A stretch of 64,000 nt of DNA. It comes from Heteronotia binoei (lineage: Eukaryota). This document shows, in pieces, positions 46,901 to 58,900 of the stretch. The position numbers are program-made. Every line of letters starts with the position of its first letter. The first letter of the stretch is position 1. The DNA is taken from NCBI RefSeq assembly GCF_032191835.1, contig NC_083226.1, positions 9,796,001-9,860,000 on the forward strand. Reading direction: 5' to 3'.

Positions 46901-49900
46901 ATGAGGAACAATTCACAAGCACTCTTTGGGTGCGATCTGTCAACCAGTTAGAAGATGAAGAAGGTGGAGATATTGGATTTATATCCCGCCCTCCACTCTG
47001 AAGAGTCTCAGAGCGGCTCACAATCTCCTTTACCTCCCCCCCCCCCACAACAGACACCCTGTGAGGTAGATGAAGATATTGGATTTATATCCCACCCTCC
47101 ACTCCGAAGAGTCTCAGAGCGGCTCACAATCTTCTTTATCTTCCTCCCCCACAACAGACACCCTGTGAAGTGGGTGGGGCTGGAGAGGGCTCTCACAGCA
47201 GCTGGCCTTTCAAGGACAGAGTCTCAGAGCGGCTCACAATCTCCTTTACCTTCCTCCCCCCCAACAGACACCCTGTGAGGTTAAGTCCGCACACTTAACC
47301 ACTACACCAAACTGGCTGTCCTACAGATAGGGTGACCATAATGTCTGAAGGCCAGCCAGGGACACCTTGGGGGAGAAGGGGGGAGGCAGGGGTGCGCGCG
47401 CGAAGCACGCGCAGGGACGCTCCCTCCCTCACTCGCCGCCTTCCCCGCCGGCGCCCGCGGCCCACCGCCTCCGGGGCTGGCTAAACCGGGACCTCTAAAT
47501 GGTCCCGGTATAGCCAGCCCGGGAGGCGGGAATAGGGGGCCAGAACCGGGACATTCCCGGGCGCCCGGGACGGTCTGGCCACCCTACCTACAGATCCACC
47601 TAACGATAACAGGATCCAAACCTGTTATTCATCTTGATCCTGGATTCCTTGGAATTCCATCTTTGCTGCCCAATTCTTCTCTTCCAAGGATAGCATGTCT
47701 CTTATTCTATGTTAGTGTCACCACCACCAAAGGTCCATAACCTCATGGATGACTTGGGGAAAGTCTGGGGTATCCCAGCCAGGGGTGGAATTCTAGCAGG
47801 AGCTCCTTTGCATATTAGGTCGCACACCCCTGACGTAGCCAATCCTCCAAGAGCTTACAAAAAAAGAGCCTTGTAAGCTCTTGGAGGATTGGCAACGTCA
47901 GGGGTGTGTGGCCTAATATGCAAAGGAACTCCTGCTAGAATTCCACCCCTGATCCCAGTCCTACAGCATGCGGTATACTCTATACTCCTATGATTATCCC
48001 AAATATGCTTGCAAATCTTTTAAGGAAAAAAGCAACTACTTCTGTCGCCGGCTGCGCTACTCAGATGTATACGTTCCTGGCCTTTGGAGACACAAACTGT
48101 CTGCTTCTTACAATGATGGGGTTTGACCGATATGTGTCCATATGTAAACCTTTACATTACAGTGCCGCCCACTGCCCAACAAATAGGGTAGGCTTTGGCG
48201 TTCCAGATACCAGGCACATTAGAAAGCAACAAGCCTGCTGCGTGCCTAATTGCCTGTCACTGGGGACAGCAACTGATCAGAGGGGTCTGTCCAACACGGG
48301 GGGGGGGGGGGTCTGCTTCAACACAACTGTTGATGTGATGGAGGGGAGGGATTTCTTCACCATCTTTCTGACTCCTCAAAGAACTTGTTATGTCAGCTCT
48401 CATTGACACTGTAATGGCTAATGAGTGTAACCTCTCAAATGCAATAGAGATAATATCCCAGAGGATTTAGAAACTTGTTTACAGTGTTTCGTGCTTTGTA
48501 AATGCCATATAAAAGCAGGGTATTGTGGCAAAATTCTGTCCTTTGGAATGGAATCCAACAGCTCACCTCCACGTAAGAAATCTGTTTTCTATATTCCTTC
48601 TTGATTCAAAAATGATGTGGCCTCTGTTTCACTAGTGGTTTGTATGAATGTCATGCCAAAAGGCACTCTATACGCTTGGTAGCTGAATACTTCCCTTGCA
48701 TGCAAAAGGCTCCAGCTTCTTTTCCTGGCACCATCAGTTCAGAGAGCTCTTAATTAGTGGGGCTGAGAAGACCTCCACAAACGACTTAGGAGAACTGCTG
48801 CAGCAGTCTGGAATAGACAACATTCAGAGGATGGATTCTTATTCAAAGACAGATTCAGAGAGGATCTCAGGTTAATAGTCCAAAATGGCAGGAGATGATT
48901 TCCTAATGCATTCAGTCTTGGGCCATTCAGGGCTGCCCAGAGCCACTGTGGGCCCCAGGACAGAGATTCCATCTGCCTCCTTTGACCCTGATCCAAAATC
49001 AAAAGCATAACATATTGAATTTCTAGGCTTCCTCATACTGTGACCATTGATGTCTCCATGTGTCCATGGCACCTTTCAGATGTGGGCATGACAACCATGT
49101 CCTCTTAGGATGCAGATGTCTGACCACCAGAGCAAAAGCAGGAAGAGATATCTTCAGACTCCCTTAGTGATATGTCTTCTGGATCAACATCATAAGCTCA
49201 TTCATTTTACTTTTTTTGCCACTGAGTTGGTACCTTATCATCACCATGAATTAATAAGCTGTCACTCCAAAGAGAGGCATTTTGGCTCTACACTTTGGAT
49301 TCTCTGCACCCAAAGGTCTTCAGTGATTGTTTATATCAGGGCATCTGCCTGACCTTCTGTGGTGCCTTCAGTTGTCCCTGATTGTCTAGCACCGCAACTC
49401 ACAACAGAGTTAGTGAGGGAAGGCCAAATGAAACAAAGAAGCCTTCATCCATTGGTGGAAGACAACGATAATACATCCGTCTCCTTGGGGAGGGAGTTCC
49501 AAGGCCCCTTTCTTGGGTTCCCTCTAGGCTTGCTAACCTCCCAGTGGGGCCTGGAGATCTCCCAAAATTGCAACTGATTTCCAGACTACAGAGATCAGCT
49601 CTCCTGGAGGAAATGGGTGCTTCGGAGGGTGGACTCTATGGCATTATACCCCACTGAGGTCCCTCCCCAAACCCCACAACATAATATCATTATATTGGTA
49701 TAATTTTATAACAAACACATGCACCAAAATTTCTGAATTTTAATTCCCCCCCCGCAAACTATGTCTCTATCCCCTTCTGTTGCAGATATATCTAAACATC
49801 TTTATAAATGAATTGAATTAAAAATAGAGGGAATGTTTATTAAATTTGCCGATGATACTAAATTGTGAGGAGTTGTGAATACAGTAGAAGACAGAGACAG

Positions 49901-55900: not shown

Positions 55901-58900
55901 AGGCGGCTGCGAGACGCTTGTGGTCAACTGAGTGTTTGAAGGGCTTGGCTGCACGGCAGGGGGAACACGGGGTGGTTTCCACCCCTCCGGGTCCCCTAGG
56001 CAGTGTAGGGGCCGCCTGGAGTTCGGACAGCACTATTGCACTTTGAGAATGCCCACACTCTGAATACACTCTGCACTTTGAGAACGTCCACGCTCTAAGC
56101 ACACTCTGCACTTTAAGTACTGCAGCGCTTTTACCCAGTACCTTTTTAACTCTAACCTGATCTTCACTGCTAATGTATCAAGATTGAACTGCTGACTGCT
56201 AAATGAATTGTTAATGAAATTTTATTGGTTAATTGATTTGGATTACTGATTAATTGACTGGCTATTTGATGAATCTTATATCTTTGGCAAATTAATTGGG
56301 AAGGGTAATCGATTGGGAGGGGTTTTTTACAATTAAGAAACCAGTAGAATTAATTAAATTTTTAGCTAATGAATTAAAGGGAAGATTATGGGGTGGGGTC
56401 TTTTAGATTAAATTAACTATTAGATAAATTATTAGCAGGGTAGCCTAAATTGAGAATTGATTGATCGGCGTGAGAAGAGAGGGTTGGGGAGTGGAGTAGG
56501 GTGGTGAACTGGGCCTATCTATAACAGGTCTGAGGCTGTGGCGGAGACTGGCAGGGGATGACCAGCCTGGGGATTCCAGTACTCCTGGGGAGGGGAAGGT
56601 ATGACGGTGGGAACAGACAGAATTATAAGGGAAGGAAGGCCGAGACATGATAGTGCTCGGCCCCCTTCCAGCCTGTGTCCCATCCCGACGGTGCCACATT
56701 CTGGCACCATGTTCTAATATTCATCTTAATCCTGGATTCCTTGGAATTCCATCTTTGCTGCCAAATTCCTCTCTTCCAAGGATAGTGTGTCTCTTATCCT
56801 ATGTTAGTGTCACCACCATCAAAGGGTCCATAGCCTCATGGATGACTTGGGGAAAGTCTGGGGTATCCCAGCCAGGGGTGGAATTCTAGCAGGAGCTCCT
56901 TTGCATATTAGGTTGCACACCCCTGATGTAGCTCTCATTGACACTGTAATGGCTAATGAGTGTAACCTCTCAAATACAATAGAGATAATATCCCAGAGGA
57001 TTTAGAAACTTGTTTACAGTGTTTCGTGCTTTGTAAATGCCATATAAAAGAAGGGTATTGTGGCAAAATTCTGTCCTTTGGAATGGAATCCAACAGCTCA
57101 CCTCCACGTAAGAAATCTGTTTTCTATATTCCTTCTTGATTCAAAAATGATGTGGCCTCTGTTTCACTAGTGGTTTGTATGAATGTCATGCCAAAAGGCA
57201 CTCTATATGCTTGGTAGCTGAATACTTCCCTTGCATGCAAAAGGCTCCAGCTTCTTTTCCTGGCACCATCAGTTCAGAGAGCTCTTAATTAGTGGGGCTG
57301 AGAAGACCTCCACAAATGACTTAGGAGAACTGCCGCAGCAGTCTGGAATAGACAACATTCAGAAGATGGATTCTTATTCAAAGACAGATTCAGAGAGGAT
57401 CTCAGGTTAATAGTCCAGAATGGCAGGAGATGATTTCCTAATGCATTCAGTCTTGGGCCATTCAGGGCTGCCCAGAGCCACTGTGGGCCCCAGGACAGAG
57501 ATTCCATCTGCCTCCTTTGACCCTGATCCAAAATCAAAAGCATAACATATTGAATTTCTAGGCTTCCTCATACTGTGACCATTGATGTCTCCATGTGTCC
57601 ATGGCACCTTTCAGATGTGGGCATGACAACCATGTCCTCTTAGGATGCAGATGTCTGACCACCAGAGCAAAAGCAGGAAGAGATATCTTCAGACTCCTTT
57701 AGTGATATGTCTTCTGGATCAACATCATAAGCTCATTCATTTTACTTTTTTGCCACTGAGTTGGTACCTTATCATCACCATGAATTAATAAGCTGTCACT
57801 CCAAAGAGAGGCATTATGATTATAGGATAGAGGAGACTTGCCTGGGTGGTAGTCTGTGTGAAAAGGATGTAGGGGTCTTAGTGGACCATACGCTGAACAT
57901 GAGTCAACAGTGTGATGTGGTGGCTAAAAAGGCAAATGCAATTTTGGGCTGTATCAACAGAAGTATAGTGTCCAGATCACATGAAGTGATGATGGTATCG
58001 CTTTACTCTGCTCTGGTAAGACCTCACCTGGAGTATTGTGTTCAGTTTTGGACACCACATTTTAAGAAGGATATAGACAAGCTGGAACGGGTCCAGAGGA
58101 GGGCAACGAAGATGGTGAGGGGTCTGGAGACCAAGTCCTATGAGGAAAGGCTGAAGGAGCTGGGCATGTTTAGCTAGGAGAGGAGGTTGCTGAGAGGTGA
58201 TATGATCACCATCTTCAAGTACTTGAAGGGTTGTCCTATAGAAGATGGTGTGGAATTGTTTTCTGTGACCCCAGGAGGTAGGACCAGAACCAATGGGTTG
58301 CGATTAAATCAAAAGAGTTTCCGGCTCAACATTAGAAAGAACTTCCTGACAGTCAGAGCAGTTCCTCAGTGGAATAGGCTTCCTCGGGAGGTTTGAGATT
58401 GGGGCCTGTCTGTGGGCAAGGAAATGTTTGCCCCACAGCACTCATGAAAGAGAACCGTCATTATTGCTGATGATGTATTGAATGTTTTTGAGTTTAGAGT
58501 GGTACGTAACCTAGACAACATGATCACTGGACCTAAAAATATCAGCTACACCATCTCAGGCTCATTTAGTTGTTCATTTTCTAACATTGTATATGCCATT
58601 AAATGCCAACAATACCCTTCAGTTCTCTACATAGGGCAAAGTGGTCACACTCTACGCCTAAACGGGCACAAATCTGATATAAAAAAACACAAAACTGAGA
58701 AACCTGTAGAACATTTCAGCCTCCTAGGACATTCAGTTCGGGACCTCGGAGTAGCTGTTTTATTGAAAAAGGAATTTCAGAAAGATTAGAATGAGAGATT
58801 GCTGAATTACAATACTCATGACAATGGAACCCCCCCCCCCGGGGCTTAAAAGAAATACTGGGTTCTTATCTCACTTCGCATGCTAAGTCACTCAGTTCTC

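What the first reader, a model, noticed from the sequence alone, without database searches (positions are those of the whole stretch)
48395..57815. Promoter and exon 1 of OR-e and OR-f are ~99% identical while the receptors are only ~78% identical
48395-49281 versus 56930-57815 shows 8 substitutions and 1 indel. The adjacent shared segment is ~95% identical, the following CR1 pieces roughly 90%, and the proteins differ at about 70 of 314 positions (rough count). The second copy joins by AGC microhomology inside a MITE on the left and enters a CR1 on the right. OR-f therefore appears to have recently acquired OR-e's promoter and first 8 codons (promoter/exon shuffling), which predicts similar choice frequency or zone for two different receptors.
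Basis: partly seen in the sequence, partly recalled or inferred. Interest (0 to 1): 0.68.

Follow-up and report, generated by a model that had tools for sequence, protein, structure and literature searches.

The report
Shared promoter block, two old receptors
Two neighbouring smell-receptor genes of a gecko differ at about a quarter of their protein positions, yet they carry a nearly identical 890-base promoter, first exon and start of intron, which points to recent copying between the genes and sets up a natural promoter-swap test.

Summary
Block B (48390-49281 versus 56926-57815) has 8 substitutions and 2 one-base gaps in 890 aligned bases (99.1%). The OR-e and OR-f coding regions are 82.7% identical, with 71 of 314 residues different and dS 0.50.

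A protein tree places e and f in separate gecko-wide orthogroups, and an AU test rejects e+f as sisters (p 4.5e-6).

B holds a family-conserved promoter (homeodomain-like, O/E-like and TATA motifs), a short first exon with an ATG, a GTAAG donor and 707 bases of intron. The intron part is as identical as the promoter part. The other paralogues' promoters are only about 75% identical, so selection does not explain the match.

B lies inside an older collinear copy. Flank A has diverged 4.7% and flank C 6.9%, both significantly more than B.

The f copy is the derived one. It holds a truncated MITE with the same insertion junction as e, and a LINE fragment that lacks both ends.

Best reading: e's 5' region was copied upstream of f. 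A later gene conversion then reset the longest uninterrupted block.

The direction of transfer, promoter activity and any expression effect remain inferred. This is a new example of a known kind of event, of moderate interest.

The parts
47626..47842 (+). Block A, OR-e copy. Unique sequence plus the left arm of a MITE. The older shared flank.
   Evidence: Matches 56718-56932 with 10 mismatches in 214 bases, 4.7%.
47780..47951 (.). Complete palindromic MITE in the e copy, flanked by the direct repeat ATCCCAG (47772-47778 and 47952-47958).
   Evidence: Self-inverted BLAST match, 89.5% over 172 bases. Relatives lie at 7299-7453 and 23585-23624. Flanks read.
47980..48159 (+). 180-base fragment of an OR-d-like coding region. 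Present only upstream of OR-e.
   Evidence: 92.8% identical to 37445-37624 and about 80% to the other five ORs. Pfam 7tm_1, E 4e-10.
48390..49281 (+). Block B, OR-e copy: promoter, exon 1 and the first 707 bases of intron 1.
   Evidence: 99.1% identical to 56926-57815.
48412..48515 (+). Core promoter motifs of OR-e: TAAT-type double site 48412-48425, O/E-like TCCCAGAGGA 48456-48465, TATAAAAG 48508-48515.
   Evidence: Conserved columns in the alignment of the five paralogue promoters. The extended O/E-like motif occurs 5 times in the window against 0.08 expected.
48548..48572 (+). Coding part of the inferred exon 1 of OR-e: ATG plus 7 codons plus 1 base. Donor GT at 48573-48574.
   Evidence: ATG, length and CAC|GTAAG donor are conserved in c, d, e and f. 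The frame is open.
49282..50008 (+). e-only segment: unique sequence, a dispersed repeat and the 5' part of the LINE. Missing from f.
   Evidence: The LINE reading frame runs unbroken across 50008/50009 in e.
50009..50572 (+). Block C, OR-e copy. Part of a CR1-like LINE (about 49795 to 50745) that keeps its 3' end.
   Evidence: Matches 57817-58383 with 39 mismatches in 564 bases, 6.9%. The 3' end aligns with other copies. Atlas look-alike is 'jockey-like' reverse transcriptase.
51206..52161 (+). OR-e exon 2. Acceptor AG at 51204-51205, canonical ATG at 51217, 314 codons.
   Evidence: ORF. Pfam 7tm_4, E 7e-52. Acceptor and frame.
56718..56932 (+). Block A, OR-f copy. Ends inside the MITE left arm (56873-56932).
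   Evidence: Same MITE insertion junction as in e.
56926..57815 (+). Block B, OR-f copy. Motifs lie at e coordinates plus 8535: O/E-like site 56991-57000, TATA 57043-57050, ATG 57083, exon end 57107, GT 57108-57109.
57817..58383 (+). Block C, OR-f copy. A LINE fragment lacking both its 5' and 3' ends.
59916..60871 (+). OR-f exon 2. Acceptor AG at 59914-59915, canonical ATG at 59927, 314 codons.
   Evidence: ORF. Pfam 7tm_4, E 1.7e-49. Acceptor.
30552..30807 (+). Homologous promoter and exon 1 of OR-d.
   Evidence: nhmmer and alignment.
18832..19083 (+). Homologous promoter and exon 1 of OR-c.
   Evidence: nhmmer and alignment.
13532..13690 (+). Homologous promoter of OR-b. The exon-1 ATG and the GT donor are lost.
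   Evidence: nhmmer E 2.4e-27 although b was not in the training set. Alignment.

Best explanation
The window is a tandem cluster of six family-10 (OR10R2-like) olfactory receptor genes in a gecko, most likely Heteronotia binoei. OR-e and OR-f are ancient paralogues.

The sequence of events I infer is:
1. At least 2.9 kb of the OR-e 5' region came to lie upstream of OR-f. It ran from the segment holding a nested MITE (A), through the promoter, exon 1 and start of intron 1 (B), to an intronic LINE (C). This happened either by a direct segmental copy or by tandem duplication of e, followed by loss of the extra coding region and of f's old promoter.
2. The f copy lost 550 and 727 bases at junctions with short microhomology.
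3. Much later, a non-allelic gene conversion between the two copies, 8.5 kb apart, reset the longest uninterrupted homology block. That block is the 890-base B, and its edges are the two indel junctions. It has since accumulated 0.9% divergence.

As a result, two receptors that differ at 23% of residues sit behind the same homeodomain-like, O/E-like and TATA motifs, the same short first exon (ATG plus 7 codons plus 1 base) and the same splice donor.

Shown: the identities, the boundaries, the derived state of the f copy, the discordance with the coding tree, and the conservation of the promoter and exon architecture among paralogues.

Inferred: the order of events, conversion as the mechanism, the direction e to f, that B_f drives OR-f, and that translation starts in exon 1.
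For: Identity of the blocks:
- B has 8 mismatches in 890 bases, A has 10 in 214 and C has 39 in 564. Fisher tests give B vs C p 4e-10, B vs A p 6e-4 and A vs C p 0.32. Leaving out CpG-associated changes, B vs C still gives p 8e-10.
- Mismatches in B are spread evenly: 2 in the 183 promoter and exon bases, 6 in the 707 intron bases.
- The e-f coding regions have dS 0.495, dN/dS 0.25 and 71 of 314 residues different.

Age of the e-f split:
- In the tree of 36 proteins, e pairs with a Euleptes protein (SH-aLRT 99, 91.7% identity). f sits in a 9-row clade with Euleptes, Paroedura and Gekko proteins (SH-aLRT 100).
- The AU test rejects e+f together (log-likelihood difference 127.2, p 4.5e-6).

Extent of homology:
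- There is no e-f homology between C and the splice acceptor, nor upstream of A, nor downstream of the genes.
- A profile of the family promoter finds 5 sites in 64 kb, one each upstream of b, c, d, e and f. It finds no second site near f.

f as the derived copy:
- f carries the same MITE-to-flank junction as e but only about 57 bases of the element. e has the full palindrome with a flanking direct repeat.
- f's LINE piece lacks the 3' end that e's copy keeps.

Promoter and exon features:
- O/E-like, TAAT and TATA motifs, the ATG and the GTAAG donor are conserved.
- Exon 1 (25 coding bases) plus the 11-base linker keeps frame in c, d, e and f (4 of 4). a and b have TAA in that frame, and b has also lost the ATG and the donor.
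- Paroedura protein P0013 carries the homologous 12-residue extension.

Precedent: promoter homogenisation by gene conversion was proposed for mouse V1R subfamilies (PMC1955453, passages).
Against: - No outgroup DNA, reads or transcripts could be examined. Conversion versus a separate recent re-copy of B cannot be told apart, and the direction rests only on parsimony of three truncation junctions.
- C has no nested marker like the MITE in A. Its 93% identity could in principle come from two copies of one young LINE subfamily.
- The CR1 label is recalled. Pfam found nothing in the LINE pieces and only an Atlas look-alike supports a LINE reverse transcriptase.
- Of the 25 gecko database relatives looked at, 17 are annotated from the canonical exon-2 Met, at the usual spacing from a conserved sequence landmark near the N-terminus. 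7 begin upstream of that position. 1 is a 511-residue model left unclassified. Use of the exon-1 ATG is therefore not the annotators' default.
- The TATA box lies only about 40 bases upstream of the exon-1 ATG. That implies a very short leader and possible leaky scanning to the exon-2 ATG.
- The O/E-like motif in e and f (TCCCAGAGGA) departs from the recalled palindromic consensus at one position.
Confidence: 0.7

Rival explanations
1. There was one recent patchwork event only. B was pasted upstream of OR-f between a pre-existing repeat copy (A) and f's own 5'-truncated LINE (C). On this view the A and C similarity reflects repeat-family similarity, not shared descent of the locus.
For: C is LINE sequence, and LINEs are often 5'-truncated at arbitrary points. 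A contains a MITE arm. A and C are 5-8 times more diverged than B.
Against: A includes about 155 bases with no other copy in the window, plus the identical MITE insertion junction. That fits a segmental copy and not an independent insertion. f's LINE piece lacks its 3' end, so it is not a primary retrotransposition product. A, B and C have the same order and orientation in both copies. The A and C divergences agree with each other (p 0.32).
Confidence: 0.12
2. The mechanism is the same but the direction is opposite. The block was native to OR-f and OR-e received it, with f suffering its three truncations afterwards.
For: Nothing in the sequence polarises the recent B event. At the two promoter differences, f carries the state seen in the other paralogues once (48441) and ambiguously once (48516). 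That only places those changes on the e copy.
Against: This needs three independent later deletions in f. The e arrangement is the intact one: full MITE with a flanking repeat, and a LINE with its 3' end.
Confidence: 0.2
3. The near-identity reflects purifying selection on a shared regulatory element, not recent transfer.
For: About 230 bases of B are conserved among five paralogues.
Against: That conservation is only about 75%. The 707 intronic bases, which c and d do not share detectably, are as identical as the promoter. Synonymous divergence of the genes is 0.5.
Confidence: 0.03
4. Assembly artefact: a spurious second copy of B was placed upstream of OR-f.
For: None from the sequence. Tandem paralogue arrays are error-prone regions.
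Against: The copies differ at 10 positions. They have different clean junctions and are embedded in older, more diverged collinear flanks. The window has no gaps. A falsely duplicated haplotype would copy the whole unit and not 890 bases.
Confidence: 0.04
5. The transfer is real but B_f is a silent relic. OR-f is transcribed from another, unrecognised promoter, so there is no regulatory consequence.
For: No transcript evidence was available. OR genes can have alternative first exons (PMC7055050, passages).
Against: All motifs, the exon and the donor are identical to those of e. Only 2 promoter substitutions exist and neither lies in a motif. No other family-type promoter lies between OR-e and OR-f.
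Confidence: 0.2

Closest known systems
Promoter homogenisation among mouse V1R paralogues (Stewart and Lane 2007, PMC1955453; passages read)
   Same: Blocks of more than 500 bases around the transcription start are as similar as, or more similar than, the coding regions between paralogues but not between orthologues. The authors propose gene conversion, so that receptors compete equally for choice.
   Different: Here the genes are odorant receptors of a gecko, in a single pair. The contrast is much sharper (0.9% against dS 0.5), the tract edges are defined to the base, and the tract is nested in an older copy.
Gene conversion and recent duplication in OR clusters (reviewed in PMC1995454, passages read; Sharon et al. 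1999 seen only as a citation there; Nagawa et al. 2002 on the MOR28 cluster is recalled, not seen)
   Same: Non-allelic exchange between tandem OR paralogues in repeat-rich clusters.
   Different: The described cases mostly concern coding regions or whole duplicated units. Here the coding regions are untouched and only the 5' regulatory and leader module is shared.
[quoted passage not shown] 2020, PMC7055050; abstract and passages read)
   Same: A short upstream exon supplies the initiator Met and a few N-terminal residues. The intron lies in the N-terminal domain. An isoform starting at the internal Met is possible.
   Different: That work rests on transcript evidence in human and mouse. Here the split is inferred from conservation of the ATG, donor and frame in four paralogues and from one Paroedura gene model.
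Canonical class II OR promoter with O/E and homeodomain sites and often a TATA box within 200 bases of the start (PMC3247239 and PMC12547500; passages read)
   Same: TAAT-type sites, an O/E-like site and a TATA box are packed into about 100 bases just upstream of the inferred first exon.
   Different: Binding and start site were not tested. The motif consensus is recalled and was not scored with a matrix. The organism is a squamate.

Membership tests
Vertebrate olfactory receptor (Pfam 7tm_4), family 10-like | Full-length match to the OR profile, and intact ORF of about 310 residues | tested here: met
   OR-e 7tm_4 E 7e-52 and OR-f E 1.7e-49 over profile positions 1-277 of 280. Best named relatives are 'olfactory receptor 10R2-like' of geckos.
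Non-allelic (interlocus) gene conversion tract | A stretch significantly more similar than its homologous flanks | tested here: met
   B 0.9% against A 4.7% and C 6.9%. Fisher p 6e-4 and 4e-10.
Non-allelic (interlocus) gene conversion tract | Phylogenetic discordance between the tract and the rest of the genes | tested here: met
   e and f are nearest neighbours in B. The coding tree rejects e+f (AU p 4.5e-6).
Non-allelic (interlocus) gene conversion tract | High identity between paralogues but not between orthologues | not testable with these tools
   No collection of eukaryotic genome DNA was available. Only protein relatives could be fetched.
Class II OR-type promoter | O/E and homeodomain motifs, with or without TATA, within about 200 bases upstream of the start site | tested here: inconclusive
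   The motifs are present and conserved in five paralogues. The start site is unknown, no position-weight scoring was done, and the consensus is recalled.
Split-CDS olfactory receptor | Initiator Met and splice junction conserved in related genes | tested here: met
   ATG, 25-base length, GTAAG donor and frame are kept in c, d, e and f. Paroedura P0013 has the homologous extension.
Split-CDS olfactory receptor | Transcript evidence for the splice | not testable with these tools
   No RNA data. The joined exon model was not built or searched.
MITE | Terminal inverted repeats, target-site duplication and several copies | tested here: met
   172-base palindrome with 89.5% arm identity. Relatives at 7299-7453 and 23585-23624. 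Flanking ATCCCAG repeat read. The superfamily was not determined.
CR1-type LINE | Reverse-transcriptase ORF2 and the characteristic 3' end | tested here: inconclusive
   Pfam found no family in the two ORF pieces. The Atlas nearest cluster is named 'RNA-directed DNA polymerase from mobile element jockey-like', score 0.97. The 3' end is shared with other copies in the window. The name CR1 is recalled.

The most novel reading that the evidence does not exclude
Within this cluster, the regulatory and coding modules of OR genes are re-assorted independently by ectopic exchange. e and f share only the promoter and leader-exon module. a and b share only a block centred on the coding region (4862-6258 versus 14672-16101). 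The homogenisation of the e/f module would be maintained because it gives two different receptors the same choice probability and expression zone. If so, the locus is a natural promoter-swap experiment that separates promoter effects from coding-sequence and position effects on receptor choice.
Probability: 0.2. Interest if true: 0.6.

Novelty: new member of a known kind. Interest (0 to 1): 0.42.

Why it matters
How much of an odorant receptor's choice frequency and zone is set by its proximal promoter, and how much by its coding sequence or its place in the cluster, is usually tested with transgenes. Here nature supplies two receptors that differ at 23% of residues behind promoters that differ at 2 of about 160 upstream bases. 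They lie 8.5 kb apart under the same cluster environment. Comparing their expression would test the point directly.

The locus also shows base-level junctions for partial, module-wise exchange in an OR cluster. It adds squamate evidence for a short coding first exon in OR genes.

Tried and rejected
- Selection as the cause of the identity was rejected. The intron part is equally identical, and the other paralogues are only about 75% identical.
- CpG hypermutability as the cause of the higher A and C divergence was rejected. Non-CpG changes give the same contrast.
- I asked whether LINE 3' ends in the introns of a, d and e mark an ancestral insertion that would polarise the transfer. They are short independent copies with different flanks, so they give no information.
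- I looked for a relic of an older OR-f promoter or any further e-f homology. No further e-f homology turned up in 52162-56717 or 58384-59926, and the family promoter profile and motif found no second site there.
- I looked for a promoter homologue of OR-a in 1-5011 and found none.
- A Pfam scan of the LINE pieces and of the ORF at 58448-58786 gave no family. My recalled 'Penelope-like' impression of the latter is unsupported.
- Orthologous DNA could not be obtained.
- The two-exon protein model was not joined, translated or searched. Exon 2 was searched alone and exon 1, at 8 codons, is too short to search.
- Two literature searches failed on term syntax and were re-sent in corrected form.

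
Full report
**What the window is.** The 64 kb hold six intact olfactory receptor ORFs on the + strand:
- a: 5012-5950
- b: 14834-15772
- c: 22351-23295, with its ORF open from 22276
- d: 37230-38174
- e: 51217-52161
- f: 59927-60871

Between them lie LTR-retrotransposon, LINE, MITE and tandem-repeat sequence. OR-e and OR-f match the Pfam olfactory receptor profile end to end.

The closest named relatives are 'olfactory receptor 10R2-like' proteins of geckos. A named Heteronotia binoei protein lies on a contig of the same length (186,718,757) as the one reported for the window's own proteins. 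I therefore take the window for a gecko, most likely H. binoei, and not for human. The window has no N.

**The observation.**

| Segment | e coordinates | f coordinates | Result |
|---|---|---|---|
| B | 48390-49281 | 56926-57815 | 890 aligned, 8 mismatches, 2 one-base gaps (99.1%) |
| A (left flank) | 47626-47842 | 56718-56932 | 10 of 214 differ (4.7%) |
| C (LINE piece, right flank) | 50009-50572 | 57817-58383 | 39 of 564 differ (6.9%) |
| Coding region | 51217-52161 | 59927-60871 | 82.7% nucleotide identity, 71 of 314 residues differ, dS 0.495, dN/dS 0.25 |

**Anatomy of the two copies.** In f the three blocks abut directly. In e they are separated by 550 bases (47843-48392) and 727 bases (49282-50008).

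The 550 bases hold three things:
- the rest of a 172-base palindromic MITE (47780-47951, arms 89.5% identical, relatives at 7299-7453 and 23585-23624). It is flanked by the direct repeat ATCCCAG (read).
- a 180-base fragment of an OR-d-like coding region (92.8% to 37445-37624).
- 230 bases with no other copy in the window.

f has the identical junction between flank and MITE but only about 57 bases of the element. It then joins B at an AGC present in both e segments.

The 727 bases include the 5' part of the LINE. In e the LINE reading frame runs unbroken across 50008/50009, and the element keeps its 3' end near 50745. f's piece lacks both ends.

Outside A-B-C there is no detectable e-f similarity upstream, between C and the splice acceptor, or downstream of the genes.

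So f holds a derived, thrice-truncated version of an e-like arrangement. Because the nested MITE junction is shared, A is a segmental copy and not an independent repeat insertion.

**What B contains.** A profile built from the e, f, d and c upstream blocks finds exactly five places in the window. Besides the four training sequences, it finds a site upstream of b (13532-13690, E 2.4e-27).

In the five-way alignment the conserved columns form these features, given in e coordinates:
- a double TAAT-type site (48412-48425)
- an O/E-like site followed by TTTRGAAR (48456-48473). This extended motif was derived from that alignment. It occurs 5 times in 64 kb against 0.08 expected, always upstream of b, c, d, e or f and on the + strand.
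- a TATA box (48508-48515)
- about 40 bases further on, ATGGAATCC and 16 more bases ending in CAC|GTAAG

O/E and homeodomain sites and TATA boxes concentrated within 200 bases of the start are the known signature of mouse OR promoters (PMC3247239, passages). Mutating them reduces receptor expression (PMC12547500, passages). The consensus sequences I compared with are recalled, and no matrix scoring was done.

**The first exon.** In c, d, e and f the exon-1 ATG is followed by 25 coding bases before the donor. Exon 2 has 11 bases between the acceptor AG and the canonical ATG. The sum is 36, so the upstream ATG is in frame in 4 of 4 genes, with no stop in the linker.

In a and b the same linker frame reads TAA just before the canonical ATG. 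b has also lost the exon-1 ATG and the GT.

I looked at 25 gecko database relatives:
- 17 start at the canonical Met, at the usual spacing from a conserved sequence landmark near the N-terminus.
- 7 begin upstream of that position. Paroedura P0013 carries a 12-residue extension homologous to exon 1 plus linker. The other six (P0011, P0014, P0025, P0026, P0027, P0032) have another residue at the canonical Met position.
- 1 (P0035, 511 residues) I left unclassified.

The short distance from the TATA box to the ATG could also favour leaky scanning to the second ATG, which is my inference.

Coding regions split over two exons and in-frame upstream ATGs are known for human and mouse ORs (PMC7055050, abstract and passages). 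Following the operators' note, I searched exon 2 alone and did not join, translate or search the two-exon model. Exon 1 is too short to search.

**Why this is recent transfer and not constraint.**
- The 8 mismatches in B are spread evenly: 2 in the 183 promoter and exon bases and 6 in the 707 intron bases.
- c and d share no detectable similarity with that intron part. Their promoters are only 74-77% identical to B.
- In a tree of the six window receptors with 30 squamate and alligator relatives, e pairs with a Euleptes protein (SH-aLRT 99, 91.7% identity). f lies in a clade of 9 with Euleptes, Paroedura and Gekko proteins (SH-aLRT 100). The 30 relatives were chosen from the 120 listed hits. 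Mammalian, bird and most non-gecko rows were left out.
- Forcing e and f together costs 127 log-likelihood units (AU p 4.5e-6).

The receptors thus separated before these gecko families did. B differs by 0.9%, about one fiftieth of the synonymous divergence.

**Two layers.** B is significantly less diverged than A (p 6e-4) and C (p 4e-10). A and C agree with each other (p 0.32). Dropping CpG-associated changes does not alter this.

The simplest history has three steps:
1. An older copy of e's 5' region was placed upstream of f, now 5-7% diverged. That is close to the 4.0% between the LTRs of the retrotransposon at 8658-13321 and the 7.2% of the OR-d fragment.
2. Deletions occurred in f.
3. A later gene conversion was confined to the longest uninterrupted block, and the indel junctions form its edges.

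A separate recent re-copy of B cannot be excluded. The direction e to f rests on the intact state of e's MITE and LINE against three truncation junctions in f. It is favoured but not shown.

No relic of an older f promoter exists in the window. This fits either replacement, or a deletion that fused a duplicated e 5' region to f.

**Comparison with what is known.** Promoter blocks of more than 500 bases, kept as similar as or more similar than coding regions between paralogues but not orthologues, were described for mouse V1R subfamilies. They were attributed to gene conversion that would equalise competition for choice (PMC1955453, passages). Gene conversion and repeat-mediated duplication are standard features of OR clusters (PMC1995454, passages).

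This locus is a new and unusually clean example of that kind in a squamate OR cluster. It is not a new mechanism. I searched for OR promoter gene conversion (86 papers hold all four terms, 20 listed) and for the MOR28 cluster (6 papers). No squamate case appeared among those listed. That is not evidence that none is in print. The Nagawa 2002 paper that I recall was not in the library.

**What stayed unchecked.** The following could not be examined:
- read support for the assembly
- genome-wide copy number of A and B
- transcripts, start sites, splicing and translation start
- expression frequency or zone

**Verdict.** The history needs the amendment to two layers. The direction of transfer and the functional consequence remain open.

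Noticed in passing
4862-6258 versus 14672-16101: OR-a and OR-b share only a block centred on the coding region. It runs from about 150 bases upstream to about 310 bases downstream of the ORF, is 90.1% identical, and the coding regions have dS 0.19. No upstream region is shared, and no promoter homologue for OR-a was found in 1-5011. This is the mirror image of the e/f pattern.
   Followed up: partly
8658-13321 (- strand): Ty3/gypsy-type LTR retrotransposon with 276-base LTRs 96.0% identical (8658-8933 and 13046-13321). It has open gag-like, protease/RT/RNase H and integrase ORFs of 214, 586 and 385 residues. It is inserted 211 bases upstream of the OR-b promoter homologue.
   Followed up: partly
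13532-13690 and 14789-14833: The OR-b promoter homologue keeps the O/E-like and TATA motifs but has lost the exon-1 ATG and the GT donor. OR-a and OR-b both read TAA in the linker frame just before the canonical ATG.
   Followed up: partly
47980-48159: An isolated 180-base fragment of an OR-d-like coding region (TM2-TM3, open frame, 13 of 180 bases different from OR-d). It lies between the MITE and the OR-e promoter and is evidence of other small patchwork copies in the cluster.
   Followed up: partly
46968-47316, 61236-61651, 62738-63287: Arrays of a repeat of about 110 bases (1.9 to 5 copies, 76-95% matches), present upstream of OR-e and twice downstream of OR-f, in both orientations.
   Followed up: no
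44200-46122 (- strand) and 53730-54176 (+): Further LTR-retrotransposon pol remnants: integrase plus Tf2-type SH3 domain, and RNase H domains. No LTR pair was found for them.
   Followed up: no
22276-22350: The OR-c reading frame stays open for 25 codons upstream of the canonical Met within exon 2 and holds another ATG, giving a 339-residue ORF.
   Followed up: no
58448-58786: An open frame of 113 residues in OR-f intron 1 with no Pfam match. It looked like a mobile-element endonuclease from memory, but that is unsupported.
   Followed up: partly
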